64,000 bases of DNA from Octopus vulgaris. Its lineage: Eukaryota. The stretch spans positions 80,476,001-80,540,000 of the forward strand of contig OX597816.1 in NCBI GenBank assembly GCA_951406725.2. The letters are read 5' to 3'. The position numbers and the translations under genes were made by a program. Positions 3,208-37,184 of this stretch are shown piece after piece (position 1 is the first letter of the stretch; every line of letters begins with the position of its first letter). Below the pieces are notes generated by a model. The model did no database searches, had not been told where the DNA came from, and saw nothing but the letters and a program-made list of their open reading frames with translations.

Positions 3208-3793
<586 letters not shown>

Positions 3794-3834
3794 CGTTTAA
3801 TATTGTTTAATATTGTTTAACATTGTTAATAATT

Positions 3835-4520
3835 TTTCAGATACTCTATCTTCTAATTAGCCTTAAGAATAAACGACGTTATTTACCCACACTTTAACAT
3901 CTTCTAATTTTTTACCCACACTCTAATATCTTCTAATTAGCCTTTTTACCCACATTTTAAATATTTGTTAATATATTTTCAGATACTCTATCCTCTAATT
4001 AGCCTTAAGATTAAATAACGTTTTTACCCACACTTTAACTTTTTCACCCACACTTTAATATATTTTTGAATACTGTATCTTCTAATTAGCCTTAAGATTA
4101 AATAACGTTTTTTACCCACACTTTAATATAATAGTAATATTGTTAACATATTTTCAGATACTCTATCTCCTAATTAGCCTTAAGATTAAATAACGTTTTT
4201 ACCCACAAACTTTAATATTGTTAATATTAATAATACTCTATCCTCTAATTAGCCTTAAGATTAAATAACGTTTTTACCCACACTTTAACATTTTTACCCA
4301 CACTTTAATATATTTTTGAATACTCTATCTTCTAATTAGCCTTAAGATTAAAAAAAACGTTTTTACCCACACTCTAATATAATATTAATATTGCTAATAT
4401 ATTTTCAGATACTCTATCTCCTAATTAGCCTTAAGATTAAATAACGTTTTTACCCACAAACTTTAATATTGTTAATATTTTTTTTCTTTTCAAATACTCT
4501 ATCTTCTAATTAGCCTTAAT
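3835..4520 (+). repeat. Tandem array in the putative 5' UTR of copy A: ~57-bp core plus AT-rich linker, with a ~250-bp higher-order duplication
   Basis: The core atactctatcttctaattagccttaagattaaataacgtttttacccacactttaa starts at ~3841, 3983, 4070, 4158, 4233, 4320 and 4409, with partial copies at ~3926 and 4494. Units at 3983-4232 recur at 4233-4493. Confidence 0.92.
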
Positions 4521-4580
4521 ATCTTCTTGTCTTCTCTCGAACATAGTTAGATAGATAAACAAATAGACAGATCATCCAGC

Positions 4581-5491
4581 ATGTCCAGAGCATGGAGACC
4601 TGACGAACTAGATTTATTCGTACGAGCCTGGAAGTGCGCCGACGGAGATAGCCCTAGCGAGGTGATTGCGGCTGCGCTGAAGAACAAAGGCTACAAGAGG
4701 ACAGCGGCTCAGATGGAGCGAAAGAGACGGGAATTCGTGCGCTCATATGCGCTTATACGGTCGCACATTGGCGCACTTGATGCCATCTTTGAGAACGAGC
4801 GGGGCAAAGATGGCAAGAATGGAGACGATGAAAGAAGTCACCCCCACCTGGTAGACGCCCGGGAGGAGGTTTTGAATGAGAAACCTGCCCGGGAAGTGAA
4901 CCCAGGAGCAAGTTCTCCAACCGGCAGCAAGGGCCATGGAGACGGAGAACCCGGTGAAGAGGTAGAGGGAGGAGGAAGAACTAAAAGAAGGGCTGGAAGA
5001 GCTAAAGGAAAAGAAAAGCTCAAGCAGGACCAAAGGGTGAAAAAACCAGGAATAGAAGTGGAACCGCAAAAGATGGAAACAAACAGCGCACACGGGTGTG
5101 TAGGTTCTACCTGAGAGGTTCCTGCTGGCATGGAAAGGAAGGTGCAGGCTGCCGCTTTGCACATCGGGGACCCTGCCACAGAGACACGAGGCAGATGGAC
5201 AAACCATCAACACAAGGAAAAGAAATGGACCACGCACCACTTGCCCCAAAGCGGAGGTACGCAGATGTTGTGCGTGCCACAAACCGCCAACATGATGTTG
5301 TCGAAAGGGCAGCTGCTGAGCAACAATCATTTTTGTGCATGGCACAAAAGATTGTACAGCAGCTGACCTGGCTTTATCAAACCCAAGCCCGCAGGTGGGA
5401 CTACCCACTATATACCAGACCACCACAGCAAACAGACCCAGGATGGACACCGCCGGCAACAACGTACACCTCACCTCGATGCTCCTACTGA
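4581..5491 (+). CDS. LINE ORF1, copy A: trihelix Myb/SANT-like domain, charged linker and CCCH zinc finger; one frameshift near 5007-5020
   Basis: N-terminus W-x3-E-L...IAAALKNKGYKRTAAQMERK matches the GT-1/Myb_DNA-bind_4-like pattern. CRFYLRGSCWHGKEGAGCRFAH is C-x7-C-x8-C-x3-H. The two track ORFs join if one A is restored in ggaaaagaaaag, and the result is collinear with copy B. Confidence 0.8.
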
Positions 5492-8346
5492 ACATCAGAG
5501 GACTGCAAACACTCAGTAACAGGACAAAGATCCCGTTCCTGAGAGACTTTGTTGCATGCAATCAAGCCTTATGCATAGCACTTACAGAAACGCACCTGAA
5601 ACCGGACATAGCAGATGCGGAGTTACACATACCACAGTATGCTGTACTACGGACCGACAGGAAAGAAAGGAGTCATGGAGGTGTTGCTATGTACATCCGG
5701 GAGGACCTCACACCCCAGGTCCTCTTGTCATACTCAAACTCGGTGTGTGACACACTAATTGTACATATTAGGCAACTTGATGTAGTTGTGTGTGCTACAT
5801 ATCGCCCTCCAGATGCCCCAAGCCATGTGGGCAAGTTTGAAGACTGCCTTATAAAAATAGAAGAAATTCTAACCACATTAGAACAACACATAGGTGTGCT
5901 TCTTATGGGAGACTTCAATCTGCCCAATGTCAGATGGCCCGAGGGCCTTTCTCTCCCAGGAATGACAAGATGTGAACGAGGACAGGCGAGGTCCCTCCTG
6001 AACCTCATCAACACCCTGTACATGGAGCAGGTAATACTCCAACCAACCAGGGCAGGTAACACACTGGATCTCTGCTTCACAAATGACATGGATCTCATCC
6101 ATAATGTGAAAGTGACACCGACACTACTCTCGGATCACAACATGATAGAGCTGACCATGTACGGGCCAAAAGAGAGCACGGACATGCAGCCTACAAGAAA
6201 CCCTCAGAATCTTTCCAGCTTGAACTACCATAAGGCAAACTGGAAACAAATTGAGAAAGAGATCCTCAAACAAAACTGGCCTAAATGTCTCTCCTCGCCA
6301 GACATCGACGTGAAACTTCAACAATTCATGTCTGTAATGCAAGCCATATGCTACAAATGTGTCCCAGAGAGAAAGGCCACTGTACACAAGAACAAAATCC
6401 CCAGAGAGAGGAAAATTTTAATGAGACGGCGTACAAAATTTTCAAATCGCCTAAACAAACAGATTGAAAGCAGTGAAAAGTCCCGCCTAAAAATAAAACT
6501 GTTGGAAATCGAAAAATGTCTGCAACTCTCCCATGAAAAAGAAAGAGCAGACAAAGAAGCCTGGGCTATAGAAAACATAAAATCTAACCCCAGAGCTTTC
6601 TACAGGTATGCCAAAGAAACAGCTACAGTGCACTGTAGAATAGGGCCACTCCTCGAAAAGGATGGCACACTTACAGGAAAACCAATGAGGGTAAGTGAAA
6701 TACTGAATGAGCAATTCAAGAGTGTTTTCACTCCACCCCTTGGGCATCTCCAAATCACCAATCCAACTGACTTTTTTACCACTGCAGATATAAAATCAGA
6801 GGCGGCGACGATAGATTACATCGATATAAAGGAAGACGATGTAACCAAGGCTATAGATGAAATGAAAACAGACTCAGCTACTGGCCCCGATGGATTCCCG
6901 GCAATCCTCCTAAAAGCATGTAAGAGAGTCCTAGCAAGACCACTGCAGTTCCTCTTTCAGAGCTTCCTTGCAGCTGGCAAACTTCCAGGAAAACTGAAGG
7001 AAGGTAAAATATGCCCCATTCATAAAGGAGGTAGCAGAGCAGAAGCCAAGAACTATAGACCTATCTCTCTGACCTCACACATCAGCAAGGTCATGGAACG
7101 AATAGTCAGAAGGAAGCTGATCACCTTCCTTGAAGAGAATGACTTGCTGCCCGACACCCAACATGGTTTCCGACCAGGGAGAAGCTGTTTAACTCAGCTC
7201 CTACAACACTATGACTGGGTGCTGAAACGGCTGCTCAACCACTCAAATGTGGAAGTGATATATCTCGACTTTGCAAAGGCCTTTGATAAAGTCGATCATG
7301 GAATGATATGTCACAAACTGCATGATCTCAACATAGTTGGAAAACTGGGAGAATGGCTTCATGACTTTCTGAAGGATAGAAGTCAGGTGGTAGTAGCCAA
7401 TGGGGCCACCTCCATTAACACACAAATAGTGAGCGGTGTTCCGCAGGGCACTGTTCTGGGACCACTACTGTTCATAATGGCCCTCTCAGACATGCCCTCA
7501 GCCACGCAGAGAGCCACGATCACAAGTTATGCAGATGATACAAAAGTTTCACAGGCAATACAGAACCCTGAGGACACTAAACACCTGCAATGTGAGCTGG
7601 ACGAAATATACAAGTGGGCTGAAAAGAATAGCATGCAGTTCAATGCTGGAAAGTTTCAAGCTTTATACTATCAGCATGCAAAACTGAATGCAATACCCAA
7701 TGAATACACTGGACCCGGAGGGATTGCAATCCCAGAGGCACAATCAGTGCGTGACCTGGGTATTCACATGAGTGATGACGCGACCTTTCATGTACATGTT
7801 GCTAAACTGACAATGAAATGTAGACGGCTGGCTGGATGGATTCTTAGAACCTTTAGAACAAGAGAACAAGAAACCATGATGGTCCTCTGGAAGACACTTG
7901 TCCTAAGCCACTTTGACTACTGCTCTCAGTTATGGTCACCATCCAGTGTCAAGTTGATCACAGAGCTCGAGGCGATCCAACGTAGATATGCAATAATATA
8001 CATCTGGAAGATCCTGGAGGGACGTGTCCTGAACTTTGGCATCGAGAGTTACGCAAATGCCAGAACTGGGCGCCACTGCGTGGTGCCTAGGACTCCAAAC
8101 CTGCCATCAAGATGTAGGACAAGATTCTGTGATAGCCTGGGCTTCCGAGGCCCACAGCTCTTCAATATCCTCCCGAAGAACCTGAGAGACCTGCATGGGG
8201 TGGATACAGATGTCTTTAAAATGAAGCTGGATCTCTTCCTGTCAGGTGTCCCAGATGAACCAACTTCACGGCAGGAGGGGCAGATGAGGGCAGCTGCATC
8301 GAACTCTCTCATGCACCAAATAGCAGTTGCTAGAAAGCCTCCATGA
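5443..8346 (+). CDS. LINE ORF2, copy A: AP endonuclease plus reverse transcriptase, with an in-frame 93-nt deletion near the C-terminus
   Basis: APE motifs LNIRGL, LTETHL, YRPP, GDFN, LDL, SDH. RT motifs [41 protein letters not shown]. First ATG at 5443; the track start at 5335 is GTG. Confidence 0.95.
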
Positions 8347-8372
8347 AGTGAAACCAAGTAGCAACACCAAAT

Positions 8373-8434
8373 GGCGGTGCCCCAGCATGGCCACAGCTCA
8401 TAAGCTGAAACTAGAATCAATCAATCAATCAATC
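8373..8434 (+). other. LINE 3' tail: conserved box, CAGCT-cata-AGCTG stem-loop and (AATC)5
   Basis: Hairpin at 8394-8407; nearly identical in copy B (12238-12299). Confidence 0.7.
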
Positions 8435-8445
8435 ATATACATATA

Positions 8446-8501
<56 letters not shown>

Positions 8502-8730
8502 TATACACATACATATATATACATATATATACATATATACATATATATACATATATACATATATATACATATATACATATATATACATATATACACATAT
8601 ATACATATATATACATATATATATATATACATATATATATATACATATATACATATATACATATATACATATATACATATATATATATACATATACATAT
8701 ATATACATATATACATATATACATATATAT

Positions 8731-8826
<96 letters not shown>
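8435..8826. repeat. (TA)n/(TATACA)n microsatellite, 3' flank of copy A
   Basis: Visible directly. Confidence 0.95.
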
Positions 8827-8864
8827 ATAAATCATATATATATATAGAGCATCATATCATATCA

Positions 8865-11656: not shown

Positions 11657-11705
<49 letters not shown>

Positions 11706-11752
11706 ATATATATATATATGTATGTGTATATATATATATATATATGCATGTG

Positions 11753-11813
<61 letters not shown>

Positions 11814-11846
11814 ATATATATATATATATGTATGTATATATATATA

Positions 11847-11877
<31 letters not shown>

Positions 11878-11906
11878 GTATGTGTATATATATATATATA
11901 TATATG

Positions 11907-11967
<61 letters not shown>

Positions 11968-11990
11968 ATATATATATATATATGTATGTG

Positions 11991-12021
<31 letters not shown>

Positions 12022-12148
12022 GTATGTGTATATATATATATATGTATGTGTATATATATATATTATATGTATGTGTATTATATATATATATATGTATGTG
12101 TATATATATATATATATATGTATGTGTATATATATATATATATATATG

Positions 12149-12237
<89 letters not shown>
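11657..12237. repeat. (TA)n/(TATG) microsatellite, 3' flank of copy B
   Basis: Visible directly. Confidence 0.95.
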
Positions 12238-12240
<3 letters not shown>

Positions 12241-12325
12241 TGATTGATTGATTGATTCCAGTTTCAGCTTATGAGCTGTGGCCATGCTGGGGCACCGCCA
12301 TTTGGTGTTGCTACTTGGTTTCACT

Positions 12326-15321
12326 TCATGGAGGCTTTCTAGCAACTGCTATTTGGTGCATGAGAGAGTTCGATGCAGCTGCCCTCATCTGCCCCTCCTG
12401 CCGTGAAGTTGGTTCATCTGGGACACCTGACAGGAAGAGATCCAGCTCCATTTTAAAGACATCTGTATCCACCCCATGCAGGTCTCTCAGGTTCATCGGG
12501 AGGATATTGAAGAGCTGTGGGCCTCGGAAGCCCAGGCTATCACAGAATCTTGTCCTACATCTTGATGGCAAGTTTGGAGTCCTAGGCACCACGCAGTGGC
12601 GCCCAGGTCTGGCGTTTGCGTAACTCTCGATGCCACAGTTCAGGACACTTCCCTCCAGGATCTTCCAGATGTATATTATGGCATATCTTTCCCGCCTACG
12701 CTCCAGGGAATATAATTTTAATCTCTTGAGTCTTTCCCAGTAGCTTACATTCTGCATAGAGGCTATCTTCTTCGTGTAGCTTCGTTGGATCGCCTCAAGT
12801 TCTGTGATCAACTTGACACTGGATGGTGACCATAGCTGAGAGCAATAGTCAAAGTGACTTAGGACAAGTGTCTTCCAGAGGACCATCATGGTTTCTTGTT
12901 CTCTTGTTCTAAAGGTTCTAAGAATCCAGCCAGCCAGCCGTCTGCATTTCATTGTCAGTTTAGCAACATGTACATGAAAGGTCGCGTCATCAGTCATGTG
13001 AATACCCAGGTCACGCACTGATTGTGCCTCTGGGATTGCAATCCCTCCGGGTCCAGTGTATTCCTTGGGTATTGCATTCAGTTTTGCATGCTGATAGTAT
13101 AAAGCTTGAAACTTTTCAGCATTGAACTGCATGCTATTCTTTTCAGCCCACTTGTATATTTCGTCCAGCTCATATTGCAGGTGCCTAGTGTCTTCAGGGT
13201 TCTGTATTGCCTGTGAAACTTTTGTATCATCTGCATAACTTGTGATCGTGGCTCTCCGCGTGGCTGAGGGCATGTCTGAGAGGGCCATTATGAACAGTAG
13301 TGGTCCCAAAACAGTGCCCTGTGGAACACCGCTCACTATTTGCGTGCTAATGGAAGTGGCCCCATTGGCTACTACCACCTGACTTCTATTCTTCAGAAAG
13401 TCGTGAAGCCATTCTCCTAGTTTTCCAACTATGCCAAGATCACGCAGTTTGTGACATATCATTCCATGATCGACTTTATCGAAGGCCTTTGCGAAGTCGA
13501 GATATATCACTTCCACATTTGAGTGGTTGAGCAGTTGTTTCAGCACCCAGTCATAGTGCTGCAGGAGCTGAGTTAAGCAGCTTCTTCCTGGTCGGAAACC
13601 ATGTTGGGTGTCAGGCAGCAAGTCATTTTCTTCAAGGAAGGTGATTAGTTTCCTTCTGACTATTCGTTCCATGACCTTGCTGATGTGTGAGGTCAGAGAG
13701 ATAGGTCTGTAGTTCTTGGCCTCCGCTCTGCTACCTCCTTTATGAATAGGGCATATTTTACCTTCCTTCAGTTTTCTTGGAAGTTTGCCAGCTGCAAGGA
13801 AGCTCTGAAAGAGGAACTGCAGTGGTCTTGCTAAGACTCTCTTACATACTTTTAGGAGGATTGCCGGGAATCCATCGGGGCCAATAGCTGAGTCTATTTT
13901 CATTTCATCTATAGCCTTTATTACATCGTCTTCCTTTATATCGATGTAATTTAACGTCGCCGCCTCTGATTCTATATCTGCAGTGGTAAAAAAGTCAGTT
14001 GGATTGCTGATTTGGAAATGCCCAAGGGGTGGAGTTAAAACACTCTTGAATTGTTCATTCAGTATTTCACTTACCCTCATTGGTTTTCCTGTGAGTGTGC
14101 CATCCTTTTCAAGGAGTGGCCCTATCCTACAGTGCACCGTAGCTGTTTCTTTGGCATACCTGTAGAAAGCTCTGGGGTTAGTTTTTATGTTGTCTATAGC
14201 CCAGGCTTCTTTGTCTGCTCTATCCTTCTCATGGGAGAGTTGCAGACAATTTTCAATTTCCAACAGTTTTATTTTCAGGCGGGACTTTTCACTGCTTTCA
14301 ATTTGTTTGTTTAGGCGATTTGAGATTTTTGTGCGCCGTCTCATTAAAATTTTTCTCTCTCTGGGGATTTTGTTCTTGTGTACAGTGGCCTTTCTCTCTG
14401 GGACACATTTGTAGCATATGGATTGCATTACGGACATGAATTGTTGAAGTATCATGTCGATGTCCGGCGAGGAGAGACATTCAGGCCAGTTTTGTTTGAG
14501 GATCTCTTTCTCAATTTGTTTCCAGTTTGCCTTATTGAAGTTCAAGCTGGAAAGATTCTGAGGGTTTCTTGTAGGCTGCATGTCCGTGCTCTCTTTTGAC
14601 CCGTACATGGTCAGCTCTACCATGTTGTGATCCGAGAGTAGTGTCGGTGTCACTTTCACATTATGGATGAGATCCATATTATTTGTGAAGCAGAGATCCA
14701 GTGTGTTACCCGCTCTGGTTGGTTGGAGTATTACTTGCTCCATGTACAGGGTGTTGGTAAGGTTCAGGAGGGACCTCGCCTGTCCTCGTTCACATCTTGT
14801 CATTCCTGGGAGAGAAAGGCCCTCGGGCCATCTGACATTCGGTAGATTGAAGTCTCCCATGAGAAGTACACTTATGTGTTGTTCTAATGTGGTTAGAACT
14901 TCTTCTATTTTTAAAAGGCAGTCCTCAAACTTGCCCATATGACTTGGGGCATCTGGAGGGCGATATGTAGCACACACAACTACATCAAGTTGCCTTATGT
15001 GTACAATTAGTGTGTCACACACCGAGTTTGAGTATGACAAAAGGACCTGGGGTTTGAGGTCCCCACGGATGTACATAGCAACTCCTCCATGACTTCTTTC
15101 TTTCCTGTCGGTCCGTAGTACAACATACTGTGGTATGTGTAATTCCGCATCTGCTATGTCCGGTTTCAGATGCGTTTCTGTGAGTGCTATGCATAGGCTT
15201 GATTGCATGCGACAAAGTCTCTCAGGAACGGGACTTTTGTCCTGTTACTGAGTGTTTGCAGTCCTCTGATGTTCAGTAGGAGCATCGAGGTGAGGTGTAC
15301 GTTGTTGCCGGCGGTGTCCAT
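12326..15321 (-). pseudogene. LINE ORF2, copy B (APE+RT), complete length but with a 1-nt deletion near 15193
   Basis: Nearly identical to copy A ORF2. Copy A gccttatgc versus copy B gcctatgc splits it into the 80-aa and 960-aa track ORFs. It retains YWERLKRLKLYSLERRRER. Confidence 0.9.
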
Positions 15322-16164
15322 CCTGGGTCTGTTTGCTGTGGTGGTCTGGTATATAGTGGGTAGTCCCACCTGCGGGCTTGGGTTTGATAAAGCCAGGTCA
15401 GCTGCTGTACAATCTTTTGTGCCATGCACAAAAAAGATTCCTGCTCAGCAGCTGCCCTTTCAACAACACGTTGGTGGTTTGTGGTACGCACCACATCTGC
15501 GTACCTCCGTTTTGGGGCCGGTGATGCGTAGTCCATCCCATTTCCTTTCGGTGGTTGGTTTCTGTGGCAGGGTCCCGGATGTGCAAAGCGGCAGCCTGCA
15601 CCTTCCTCTCCATGCCGGCAGGCACCTTTCAGGTAGAACCTACATACCCGTGTGCGCTGCTTGTTTCCATCCTTTTTGGCATATGGACAGTTAGGTTTGC
15701 CTCTATCCCTGGCTGCCTTGCCCCTTGGCTTTGTCTGAGTTTTAGCTTTAGTTTTTCCTCTTTTTTTTGGCCTCTCCATCTCCATGTCCATGGCTTTTGG
15801 TGCCGGTAGGAGCATCCGTACCTGGGTTCACCTCCCGGGCAGGCCTCTCGTTGGAGTTTTCTTCCTGGGCGTCCACCAGGTGGGGGTGACCCTCCTCATC
15901 TGCGCCCGCGTCTCCATCCTTGCCATCTTTACTTTGTTCGCGTTTTTCGCTGTTAAAAATGGCATCCAGTGTGTTTATGTGCGATCTTACAAGTGCGTAT
16001 GAGCGTACGAACTCTTGCCTCTTCCGCTCTATTTGTGCTGACGTCCTTTTGAATCCTTTGTTCCTTAGTGCTGCCGCAATTACGTTACTTGGACTTTCTC
16101 CGTCAGCGCATTGCCATCCTCGTAGGAACCACGACAGTTCATCACGTTTCCAAGCTCTGGACAT
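15273..16164 (-). CDS. LINE ORF1, copy B (trihelix Myb/SANT-like plus CCCH), frameshifted at an A8 run (15761-15768)
   Basis: MSRAWKRDEL...IAAALRNKGFKRTSAQIERK and CRFYLKGACRHGEEGAGCRFAH; removing one A joins the 138-aa and 180-aa ORFs. Confidence 0.8.
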
Positions 16165-16449
16165 TCTTGATATATTATCTATCTATCTAATTATGTTAAG
16201 TTATATTAATCCAATAGTAGGGGGTAATAGAGAAAGAGAGCGTCCGTGCACTTAAGGAGAGATTGGGAGCCAAGAGAAGAGAGCAAGAGAGAAGAGGAAG
16301 AGGAGATACTGAGTGCTGAAGGAAGATAGAGAAAGCCTCTATGCCCTCAGAGAGAGATTGAGAGCTGAGAGAGGAGAGCTGAGACAGACAGAGAAGCGCA
16401 AGGGAGAGAACCGAAGAGACAGACAGAGAGATCTGAAGAGACAGATCTC

Positions 16450-17312
<863 letters not shown>

Positions 17313-34387: not shown

Positions 34388-36416
34388 CATATACATTATT
34401 GATTTCCGAGATAAGATATCGAATATAACTCCTCATTATCAGTTGGCTAATTATCAATTGAAATTTTCTAATTACTTAGCTCTCATATACTTTGAATCAT
34501 AATCAGTTTAATTTGTCAATAAACACTAACCCCATTTTATACATTTTCGGCTTCAGATAACTATAACCCATGGTCTTTTAAACTATTCTTTTAGAACCAA
34601 TTTATATTGTGTGGTTTTCTCTTGAATCCATTAGTTACTGTTTTATACATAGCTAAGTGAATATTTAAATGTTATCTAACTGAATAACGAAACTTACTTT
34701 CCTTCAATCAATTAACAAGCTTATCAAACGAATTTCATCAACGTGTTATTCAAATTGATTCCAACTGCTGAAAGCCTACCAACTGCCATTTGGAAGTATC
34801 TAGCCTCTCAGGGCCTGTGGTTTACAAAGTTACCCTCACACCAACCAATGGCATCGTAACACACCACATGGGCATGACGGATAATATTTTCAAGTGAAGG
34901 TATATGCTGCATAAACAAGCCTTCAGGAGCAGGGATAGCGAAAATTCTACATGCTCGTCTCACTTTATCTGAAGGTTTCGGGACCATCGAATACAGTATC
35001 CTTGATAAGGCCCAAAACGTCTTTCTGTCTGGTACAATGCACCGAGGGCTAAGTTATCTGAGGCTATAAGGCGTGAGTAAGGCTATAAGGCCTGAGTGAT
35101 CAGACGTATGATCTAAAGCATTGCAGTTGTGACTATTTTGTATTTTTCCTACGCTCTGTGCATACAGAATCATTTAAACAATGTATGTTTTCTTTTAATT
35201 GACGTTATGATTTCTTAAAAGGGAATTTTTATACAGTCTTTCCGCAGCACTAGAATCAGTGAAACTACTTTCTGATTGGAGGTATTTCTGTTGTTTGTGG
35301 TGAAGAAAGTGGTGCTGGTTCTAATGCTATTAGTATTGCTGCGGTTTTATTGACATTTAATTATAGTAATGACATCACGATGTTATCAGTATGCCGTTAC
35401 TATTTCATGTATTAATTGCTTGTGCGTGCTCACGCTTCTGTCTGGGCTTACATTGTGGGTGATTGCAAATGTTTCATCCCATTCTGAAGGTGCATACACA
35501 CACAAAAAATGCATGTGTCTGTGTATGCATATGTGTATGTATATGCGCATAAATATGTGTGCGCATGTGTGTGTGTGTATTTGTGCATAAGTATTTGCGT
35601 GCGCACGTGTGTGTATTTGTAAAAACTATAGCCGCTAATGATGCTATTAAGCAAATTATAGCAGTTTCTTTTTAACTAATTTATTTTACAGGTTTTATAG
35701 GCTTTAAAATACAGACACAATCACATAAAATTATTTTTTATTATTTTGGAATGACATAATGTGATATATATATAAACATTCAATCAGTCTTAAAATGATG
35801 CTCTGCTATTTCATATTATATTACTGCATAAATATATTCTATTTAGTATAAATTATATGATTATGCAATAGTATTATATATGCAGTGAAATAATGTTCAC
35901 ATAATATTATTTATGTTATACCTAAACAGCTCATTCTGATATACTAATATATATCAATATATGTCACCGAGTACTTACATAAGCATAACACTTATAAGAA
36001 TGCCTCAAATAAGCACAAGGACAAAAGTTCTCGTGAGTGTGGAACAATTGATTAAAATTACCTCAGTACTTCACTGATACCCTACTTTATTAACTGTCGA
36101 GGAATGAACGGGGAATTGATCTTCGCATAATTTCTGCATAAAACAGGACCACTAACTGCAATTCACTTGGGGTGACATTCCAATGAATCTACCGATCTAA
36201 TGACTATGGTATGTATGTTTTGTTTTAATACTGAATTCAAATTTTGGCACAGAGCCAGCAATTTCATGGATGGGTGTACTCGGTGGAAACTGTACTCAAC
36301 GAGAAAGGACAGACGGAATGCCACTAAGAATTTTGCCCGCCGTGCCAACAATTCTGCCCGTTCACAGCTTTAAGAACAATAATAATCCCGGCTACTATTA
36401 CTACTACTACTACAAC

Positions 36417-36687
<271 letters not shown>

Positions 36688-36926
36688 CCTTTCTACTATA
36701 GGCACATGGCCTGAAATTTGGCGGGAGGGGGCCAGTCGATCAGATCGACCCCAGTACGCAAGTGGTACTTAATTTATTGACCCACGGAAGGATGAAAGAC
36801 AAAGTCGACCTCGGCGGAATTTGAGTTCAGAACGTAGGGACATACGAAACACTGCTAAGTATTACACCCCGCGTGCTAACGATTCTGCCAGCTCGCCGCC
36901 TGAGTAATAATAATAATAATAATTAT

Positions 36927-36977
<51 letters not shown>

Positions 36978-37181
36978 CATTTCTACTATAGGCACAAGGC
37001 CTGAAATTTATTGGGTGGGGACTAGTCGATATTATCGACTCCAATGTTTGACTCAATGTACCGACCCGAAAGGATGAAAAGTAAAGTCGACCTCGGCGGA
37101 ATTTGAAGTCAGACCATAGTGACGGGCGAAATACCGCGAAGCATTTCCTCCAAGGTGCTAACGATTCTGCCATCTCGCCGT
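36688..37181 (-). mobile_element. Two tandem family-1 SINEs (36688-36900 and 36978-37181) separated by (AAT)n
   Basis: Both read ttctactataggcac...aaggatgaaa...aaagtcgacctcggcggaatttga...gctaacgattctgcca.ctcgccg. Confidence 0.9.
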
Positions 37182-37184
37182 CTG

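What the first reader, a model, noticed from the sequence alone, without database searches (positions are those of the whole stretch)
3794..5491. Possible self-regulating LINE module: GT-box-like array upstream of a trihelix-domain ORF1
Seen: the ~700 bp before the ORF1 ATG holds 11 copies of TTTACCCAC(AC), one of them a variant; the reverse complement is GTGTGGGTAAA. These are interleaved with the palindromes CTAATTAG, CTTAAG and AACGTT. ORF1 begins with a trihelix/Myb-SANT-like domain. Established: plant trihelix factors GT-1/GT-2 bind GGTTAA/GGTAAT/GGTAAA boxes such as GTGTGGTTAA, and monomer arrays act as promoters in mouse L1. Inference: ORF1p may bind an operator-like array in its own 5' UTR, forming a transcription-factor/operator pair inside a retrotransposon. 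I do not know of this being described.
Basis: partly seen in the sequence, partly recalled or inferred. Interest (0 to 1): 0.8.

Follow-up and report, generated by a model that had tools for sequence, protein, structure and literature searches.

The report
Octopus LINE: swappable leader, Myb-like ORF1
This jumping gene, likely from an octopus, has a tandem-repeat front end that likely serves as its promoter and a first protein predicted to fold like a Myb/SANT DNA-binding domain, but a sister version with nearly the same domain has no such repeats, so the protein likely does not use them as its own on/off switch.

Summary
In detail: 10 exact TTTACCCAC plus one variant lie at 3882-4457. They and the palindromes are fixed parts of a ~87-bp monomer repeated about nine times, so they are not independent sites; a shuffled monomer holds a GT-box hexamer 22% of the time. 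The array is the 5' leader of a multi-copy LINE subfamily (A), not a one-off host minisatellite. ORF1 starts with a Myb/SANT-like four-helix domain (Pfam below threshold; AlphaFold pLDDT 88; GT-1 tied with SANT, TEAD and MYB folds), followed by a CCCH finger behind a copy-specific frameshift. Named relatives are Octopus proteins. A second full-length copy in the same window (B, 16450-12238) has 14 of 17 identical residues in the predicted recognition helix but a CT-rich leader with no array, and that leader is also multi-copy. Best reading: L1-like leader replacement, with a monomer promoter read by host factors; the Myb-like domain binds something shared by the whole family. Autoregulation through GGTAAA is about 12% likely. 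The Myb/SANT + CCCH ORF1 type was not found in ten literature searches and is the part worth keeping.

The parts
3212..3793 (.). (TA)n microsatellite, 5' flank of copy A (insertion site)
3794..3840 (+). 5' terminus of copy A: 3-4 units of a 10-bp AT-rich repeat, unit number varies among copies
   Evidence: 3795-3831; loose ends at 3816 in all four runs
3841..4520 (+). Tandem monomer array (about 8 monomers plus a partial ninth; 3983-4232 and 4233-4493 are two 3-monomer higher-order units), carrying the 11 TTTACCCAC-type motifs and the palindromes; predicted internal promoter/enhancer
   Evidence: multi-copy in four public runs; no RNA structure
4521..4580 (+). Tether between array and ORF1; 4540-4557 is an 18-nt block 17/18 identical to leader B (16197-16180), the only shared stretch of the two leaders
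   Evidence: score 32, 3 of 500 shuffles reach it
4581..4808 (+). ORF1 N-terminal Myb/SANT-like domain (aa 1-76), three helices plus a fourth helix
4581..5491 (+). ORF1 (about 300 aa in intact relatives), frameshifted in this copy near 5008-5013
   Evidence: frame-restoring indels at 5008 and 5013 in contigs of all four runs; unbroken relatives P0008, P0023, P0027
5099..5164 (+). Single CCCH zinc finger (C-x7-C-x8-C-x3-H) of ORF1, predicted RNA-binding
   Evidence: sequence; weak Pfam zf-CCCH/Torus hits below threshold
5443..8346 (+). ORF2, APE endonuclease + reverse transcriptase, 967 aa, with a 93-bp in-frame deletion near 7986 relative to copy B
8347..8436 (+). Short 3' UTR ending in an (ATCA)n tail, then (TA)n
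16165..16450 (-). Leader of copy B: 286 bp, CT-rich, no array, one TTACCC at about 16227-16222; multi-copy
15273..16164 (-). ORF1 of copy B, same architecture, frameshifted at 15761 in this copy
12238..15321 (-). ORF2 (one frameshift near its start), 3' UTR and (ATCA)n tail of copy B, inserted in (TA)n

Best explanation
The array is the exchangeable 5' leader of one subfamily of an APE-RT LINE family, likely of an octopus, and likely works as a monomer-type internal promoter read by host factors, while ORF1p likely packages the RNA with its CCCH finger and likely uses its predicted Myb/SANT-like domain on a ligand shared by the whole family (most likely DNA or chromatin at the insertion site) and not on the array. 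Shown: element anatomy; array is multi-copy and joined to ORF1; a sister subfamily has a different leader; the two copies are 74-76% identical over tether and N-terminal ORF1 but 94-99% from 5340 to the 3' end, so 5' modules were exchanged on a shared ORF2; the N-domain is under purifying selection. Inferred: promoter function (by analogy with rodent L1 monomers), RNA binding by the CCCH finger, nucleic-acid binding by helix 3, and the target-tethering role (by analogy with the R2 Myb domain; both copies here sit in (TA)n). The array-as-promoter step is about 65% likely, the target/chromatin-tethering step about 35-40%.
For: Array of monomers plus tether directly before ORF1 is the rodent L1 layout, where monomers carry promoter activity (PMC9022269 abstract) and non-homologous 5' UTRs, tandem 70-100-bp motifs and low-complexity leaders recur within species (PMC5381506 passages); 5' repeating subunits also occur in some vertebrate CR1-group elements (PMC13343379 passage). 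Array contigs of depth 1118-1573 (X1, X3) and 247 (X4) against low-depth contigs of about 20-70 and 4-11; an array-to-tether joint at depth 880/1064/171 in 3 of 4 runs; a variant contig across tether and ORF1 start. Leader B covered in all 4 runs laid, with a contig of depth 681 across 16164-16244 (X4) and one 455-nt contig from leader into ORF1 (X13). N-domain differences A vs B by codon position 9/9/35. Helix 3 is the most conserved segment of 25 aligned sequences (mean pair identity 50% vs 29, 42, 35%) and basic (10 K/R, 2 D/E in aa 34-60), although leaders differ. P0016 reads through a CT-rich and then CA/TA-type upstream sequence into a homologous ORF1 start. Five array or tether segments and the B pre-ATG segment fold no better than shuffles (z 0.1 to 1.8). 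R2 uses ZnF+Myb on target DNA (PMC12503042 passages).
Against: No transcription start, reporter or binding data; no run on record as RNA was listed. The array is 25% GC with few CpG, unlike CpG-island L1 monomers. Only two full leaders were read as DNA; no genome was held. (TA)n insertion rests on 2 of 2 copies in a window that is about 10% dinucleotide runs, and unrelated Penelope-like elements also prefer (TA)n (PMC8557442 passages), so it needs no Myb domain. SANT-type folds can bind protein or histone tails in place of DNA, and the top fold matches include DNAJC2 SANT. Leader B has one TTACCC (P~0.02).
Confidence: 0.55

Rival explanations
1. One reading: ORF1p binds the GTGGGTAAA repeats of its own leader through the trihelix-like domain and regulates its own transcription.
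For: Motif is multiplied at several scales (20-, 29-, 87- and 251-bp periods) and is the most repeated non-AT word (11 ACCCAC vs 9 CTAATTAG). GT-1 is among the top fold matches (Z 6.4; Foldseek rank 4, E 0.5). Leader B has one TTACCC about 60 nt before the ATG (2% of shuffles). One A/B difference in helix 3 (R50Q) would be on the exposed face by helical periodicity (inference), so a specificity switch is not excluded. Harbinger Myb-like trihelix proteins bind their own element's ends (PMC9392472 passages).
Against: Subfamily B: same domain, 0 TTTACCCAC, multi-copy, contigs at least as deep as A's. P0016 upstream has no peptide trace of the motif in any frame. GT-box hexamer chance 22% per monomer. 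GT-1 is tied with or below SANT, TEAD4 and RAD-MYB; no sequence match to any solved Myb/trihelix chain. The family has no Trp in helices 2 and 3, unlike the Trp-per-repeat pattern of plant trihelix factors (PMC4195496 passages). Trihelix-like domains as a class do not all read GT boxes (recalled).
Confidence: 0.12
2. ORF1p does bind its own leader, but at the one block shared by both subfamilies (4540-4557 / 16197-16180, a TTAGATAGATA-type stretch just before the ATG), and the array multiplies an inverted look-alike of it (the TCTATC..CTAATTA core).
For: 17/18 identity in this block against 50% identity at third codon positions of the adjacent N-domain; best local match of the two leaders, 3 of 500 shuffles. 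The inverted monomer core matches leader B's block (score 26, P~0.01 uncorrected). A shared site fits a conserved helix 3.
Against: The block is homologous by descent and contains a GATA-factor consensus (recalled), so a host factor or translation signal explains it as well. A's own block does not match the inverted monomer beyond chance (P=0.26). Several comparisons were made, so P~0.01 is weak. Only two leaders were compared.
Confidence: 0.12
3. The array is a captured or slippage-amplified minisatellite that rides at the 5' end of one subfamily without regulatory function; transcription comes from the tether or from flanking DNA.
For: AT-rich (25% GC), unstructured, variable unit number among copies (joints skipping 246-254 bp and loose ends); genome is very rich in tandem repeats; B spreads without it.
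Against: It is carried by tens of copies (rough), occupies the promoter position, has no upstream ATG, and its motif-bearing core is kept in every full monomer while the AT-rich tails vary.
Confidence: 0.2

Closest known systems
Rodent L1 with monomer 5' UTR and tether; L1 5' UTR replacement (PMC9022269 abstract; PMC5381506 passages)
   Same: Tandem monomers, then a tether, then ORF1; non-homologous leaders on closely related ORF2s; variable monomer number.
   Different: Monomers here are ~87 bp and 25% GC with a 3-monomer higher-order unit (mouse ~200 bp, CpG-rich); ORF1 is unrelated to L1 ORF1p; element ends in (ATCA)n, not poly(A); promoter activity untested.
CR1/L2-group (Jockey superfamily) LINEs with modular ORF1 (PMC4120745, PMC13343379 passages)
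   Same: Two ORFs, APE + RT, no RNase H hit, short 3' UTR with microsatellite tail; ORF1 modules swapped among lineages.
   Different: ORF1 here is Myb/SANT-like + one CCCH finger + C-terminal helix; described types use RRM, CCHC, PHD or esterase. The words Myb, SANT and CCCH do not occur in the main text of either survey. It would fall in 'type V, unclassified'.
Harbinger/PIF Myb-like (trihelix) protein (PMC9392472 passages)
   Same: A transposon-encoded Myb/SANT-trihelix domain; the known case of such a domain binding its own element.
   Different: Harbinger is a DNA transposon and the protein binds element ends to recruit transposase; here a LINE ORF1 fused to CCCH; no sequence link to Harbinger proteins was found among 29 hits.
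R2 retrotransposon N-terminal ZnF + Myb (PMC12503042 passages)
   Same: A Myb-type domain encoded by a non-LTR element, used on DNA.
   Different: R2's is part of the single RT-RLE protein and reads the rDNA target; here it is in a separate ORF1 of an APE element and its ligand is unknown.
Plant GT-1/GT-2 trihelix factors (PMC4195496 passages; PDB 2jmw, 2ebi)
   Same: Three-helix fold with a long third helix and a fourth amphipathic helix.
   Different: 15-19% identity in structural alignments, no Trp in helices 2 and 3, not separable from other Myb/SANT folds; GT-box specificity cannot be transferred.

Membership tests
Pfam Myb_DNA-bind_4 (Myb/SANT-like, trihelix-type) | Score at or above the curated cut-off (27 bits) | tested here: not met
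   21.1 bits (E 4e-4) for A, 17.9 for B; 5 of 25 relatives hit at E<=0.1, none above cut-off
Myb/SANT-like fold | Three-helix bundle with helix-turn-helix and long third helix | tested here: met
   AlphaFold2 pLDDT 88, pTM 0.70; top VIA rows are SANT, TEA, MYB, GT-1 at Z 6.0-7.3; Foldseek top rows similar but no E<=0.001; Z under 8 may be a common arrangement; Atlas features point to the same families at 0.81-0.84, lead only
Plant GT trihelix factor | Conserved Trp in each repeat/helix | tested here: not met
   Trp at 5 (15/18) and 17 (17/20) only; none in helices 2 or 3 in the alignment; criterion from PMC4195496
Plant GT trihelix factor | Fourth amphipathic helix (F/Y)(F/Y)xx(L/I/M)xx(L/I/M) | tested here: inconclusive
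   Fourth helix predicted at 63-76 with L66 and I69 conserved, but H62-I63 in place of the two aromatics
Plant GT trihelix factor | Specific binding to GT boxes | not testable with these tools
   Needs EMSA/SELEX
APE-type LINE | ORF2 with APE endonuclease and RT | tested here: met
   RVT_1 E 9e-31, Exo_endo_phos_2 E 5e-12, both above cut-off
CR1/L2 group | RT phylogeny within the CR1 group | not tested
   No reference RT set was available; assignment rests on recalled features (no RNase H, microsatellite tail, C-terminal FK..LD.FL-type motif)
L1-type monomer promoter | Tandem monomers plus tether at the 5' end of multiple copies | tested here: met
L1-type monomer promoter | Promoter activity of monomers | not testable with these tools
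   No run on record as RNA, contigs only
Autoregulatory TF/operator module | Operator present in all elements that encode the factor | tested here: not met
   Subfamily B and P0016's source lack the array
Host minisatellite unrelated to the LINE | Array unique to this locus or unlinked to ORF1 | tested here: not met
   Multi-copy and joined to the tether in 3 of 4 runs; unlinked extra copies cannot be excluded from short contigs

The most novel reading that the evidence does not exclude
This LINE family's ORF1p is a sequence-specific DNA-binding protein: a trihelix-type domain fused to an RNA-binding CCCH finger that reads its own leader (the shared pre-ATG block, or subfamily-specific sites such as GTGGGTAAA after an R50Q switch), giving a retrotransposon a built-in feedback loop that co-segregates with swappable 5' modules.
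Probability: 0.2. Interest if true: 0.8.

Novelty: new variant of a known kind. Interest (0 to 1): 0.42.

Why it matters
LINE ORF1 proteins are known as RNA chaperones. An ORF1 with a conserved, basic Myb/SANT-like domain next to a CCCH finger is an ORF1 type that the surveys read here do not list, and it raises a testable question: does an ORF1p touch DNA (target, chromatin or its own leader)? The A/B pair is a ready-made natural experiment: near-identical ORF2, near-identical recognition helix, unrelated leaders. It also shows L1-style leader replacement and monomer arrays in an invertebrate LINE. The specific GT-box operator story is unlikely, and the array itself is an expected kind of LINE leader.

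Tried and rejected
No genome was held, so copies could not be listed. Word-indexed protein searches found nothing: N-domain, near lengths, CCCH half, longer lengths, alignment A4, 511-2000 aa only. Sequence searches of solved structures gave no Myb/trihelix chain; weak ribosomal S8 and MBNL-type CCCH rows were set aside as chance or finger-only. Atlas search with P0027 gave no usable hit. Metagenome scans for the N-domain and for a 21-nt monomer core were empty. No RNA holder was listed; X13 is only guessed to be RNA and was not used as evidence of expression. RNA-structure role: rejected, z-scores 0.1 to 1.8; Rfam gave only sub-threshold microRNA rows, nearly all on (TA)n, none in either leader. 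Programmed frameshift between Myb and CCCH parts: rejected, the two copies break in different frames and population contigs are in frame. Splice-acceptor-like leader (TTTCAG ends 4 monomers): rejected for B, 3 sites vs 2.6 by chance. Homology of monomer to leader B in the same orientation: not significant (P=0.2). Tree of 23 N-domains was mostly unresolved (3 of 20 forks starred; P0026 and P0028 left out as too short; P0016, P0021 not in the alignment), so the order of leader replacement was not inferred. No complex was predicted: the tool does not take DNA.

Full report
Observation. The motif count is right. TTTACCCAC occurs exactly 10 times in the 64-kb window, all on the + strand between 3882 and 4457, with one variant at 4043. 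CTAATTAG, CTTAAG and AACGTT occur 9, 7 and 6 times in 3794-4580. But the region is a tandem array: about eight monomers of 56-89 bp and a partial ninth, the last six forming two ~251-bp units identical at 237 of 261 columns. Motif and palindromes are fixed positions in that monomer, so the repetition is one event multiplied. A shuffled monomer contains a GT-box hexamer in 22% of trials.

The element. Copy A runs 3794-8436 inside (TA)n: leader, ORF1 from 4581, ORF2 5443-8346 with APE and RT above Pfam cut-offs, short 3' UTR and (ATCA)n tail. ORF1 is frameshifted here, but contigs of all four runs laid carry frame-restoring indels at 5008 or 5013 and relatives P0008, P0023 and P0027 are continuous 289-371-aa proteins with N-domain, linker, CCCH finger and a conserved C-terminal helix. 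A profile of the two window domains found 29 proteins at E<=0.001 among 1.84 billion; I fetched 25 (four multi-stretch repetitive hits dropped) and aligned 23 (two with internal domains left out). Of 20 looked up, 6 carry names, all Octopus sinensis or O. vulgaris; 14 are unnamed. The CR1/L2-group assignment is from recalled features and was not tested by an RT tree.

The domain. Pfam Myb_DNA-bind_4 scores 21 bits, below its 27-bit cut-off; 5 of 25 relatives hit it at E<=0.1. AlphaFold2 on 25 sequences gives helices 7-19, 25-35, 42-60 and 63-76, pLDDT 88. Among 48,161 chains the best are DNAJC2 SANT and TEAD4 (Z 7.3), RAD MYB (7.0) and GT-1 (6.4), within 1 Z of each other and all under 8; Foldseek has no match at E<=0.001. 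So the fold is Myb/SANT-like with a trihelix-type fourth helix, but GT-1 is not singled out. Trp is conserved only at 5 and 17, whereas plant trihelix factors keep one per repeat (PMC4195496, passages). Helix 3 is the best-conserved segment (50% mean pair identity) and basic, which fits nucleic-acid binding to something the family shares.

Is the array part of the element? Yes. In four public runs held as short contigs, array segments assemble at depth 1118-1573 (X1, X3) and 247 (X4), against low-depth contigs of about 20-70 and 4-11, which suggests tens of copies (rough; depth is not a copy number). A joint from an array monomer into the tether is seen in 3 of 4 runs at matching depth, and a variant contig spans tether and ORF1 start. 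No contig spans the whole stretch, and one run may be the source sample.

A second full-length copy (B) lies at 16450-12238 on the minus strand, also in (TA)n. Its N-domain is 69% identical to A's, helix 3 14 of 17, with differences at codon positions 9/9/35, that is, old divergence under purifying selection. Its leader is 286 bp, CT-rich and has no TTTACCCAC. It is not a one-off: all 4 runs laid cover it, a contig of depth 681 spans 16164-16244 in X4, and a 455-nt contig runs from leader into ORF1 in X13. A and B are 74-76% identical over 4540-5140, 87% over 5140-5340 and 94-99% from there to the 3' end: two different 5' modules on one ORF2. P0016 is an ORF that reads through CA/TA-type and then CT-rich sequence into a homologous ORF1 start, with no peptide trace of the motif, a third, indirect case of an array-less leader. 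Against this reading: leader B has one TTACCC about 60 nt before the ATG (2% of shuffles; GT hexamer 8%), and R50Q would be on the exposed face of helix 3 (inference). The only stretch shared by both leaders is an 18-nt block just before the ATG (17/18 identical, 3 of 500 shuffles); it is a better candidate than GGTAAA for any family-wide cis-element.

Mechanism. Most likely the array is a monomer promoter acquired by one subfamily, as in rodent L1, where monomers and tether carry promoter activity (PMC9022269, abstract and outline) and leaders are replaced, tandemly duplicated or low-complexity (PMC5381506, passages); 5' repeating subunits are also reported for some vertebrate CR1-group elements (PMC13343379, passages). 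The monomers are unstructured as RNA. ORF1p would bind RNA by the CCCH finger and basic linker; the Myb-like domain would bind a conserved ligand, most likely target DNA or chromatin, as the R2 Myb domain reads target DNA (PMC12503042, passages). That last step is weak: 2 of 2 insertions in (TA)n in a window about 10% dinucleotide runs, and Penelope-like elements prefer (TA)n without such a domain (PMC8557442, passages). Self-binding has a precedent in Harbinger Myb-like proteins (PMC9392472, passages), which keeps the autoregulation models at about 12% each.

Novelty. Ten full-text searches listed no paper on a LINE ORF1 with a Myb/SANT/trihelix domain; the most direct returned none. Myb, SANT and CCCH are absent from the main texts of three ORF1 surveys (PMC4120745, PMC5203782, PMC13343379); their supplements were not read, one of them reports a different helix-turn-helix ORF1 in an alga, and Repbase/Dfam could not be searched. 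Two mollusc TE papers (PMC9115989, PMC10294476; passages) did not describe this element in the passages seen. Earlier findings of this scan held no look-alike by sequence or place.

Verdict. Observation confirmed; interpretation partly supported. A new ORF1 variant in an otherwise ordinary LINE with an L1-like swappable leader. Interest 0.42; self-binding of any kind about 0.2, worth 0.8 if shown.

Noticed in passing
window 4540-4557 (+) and 16197-16180 (-): An 18-nt block 17/18 identical between two otherwise unrelated leaders, just before the ORF1 ATG; contains a GATA-like repeat; resembles the inverted monomer core in B only.
   Followed up: partly
window 5140-5340 vs 15640-15420: Sharp rise of A/B identity from ~75% to 99% inside ORF1 (5340-5540 and the last 300 bp are 99% identical, ORF2 ~95%): recombination breakpoint and possibly recent conversion tracts.
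   Followed up: partly
window 3212-8830 and 11658-17304: Two copies of the same LINE family 3.8 kb apart, tail to tail, each in the middle of a long (TA)n tract; possible microsatellite preference.
   Followed up: partly
window 16396-16434: Population contigs show a different, partly duplicated 5' end for subfamily B (joint going back 39 bp, loose ends at 16396 and 16427 in 4 runs), so this copy's first ~25 bp are atypical and B's leader has its own short repeat.
   Followed up: no
window 5295-5580: Many low-depth contigs join the ORF1 C-terminal helix region or ORF2 start to unlike sequence (loose ends at 5373 and 5536), suggesting further diverged subfamilies with other ORF1 ends.
   Followed up: no
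window 5443-5491: ORF2 starts 49 nt before the ORF1 stop, in another frame, within a stretch 100% identical in A and B.
   Followed up: no
window 4743-5495 (-) and 15269-15694 (+): Antisense ORFs over the ORF1 3' half in both copies (250 and 141 aa); probably a by-product of conservation.
   Followed up: no
window 36615-37184: A 290-bp tandem duplication containing (TAA)n and a short GC-richer repeat, possibly SINE-like; a similar 19-bp unit at 35061-35097.
   Followed up: no
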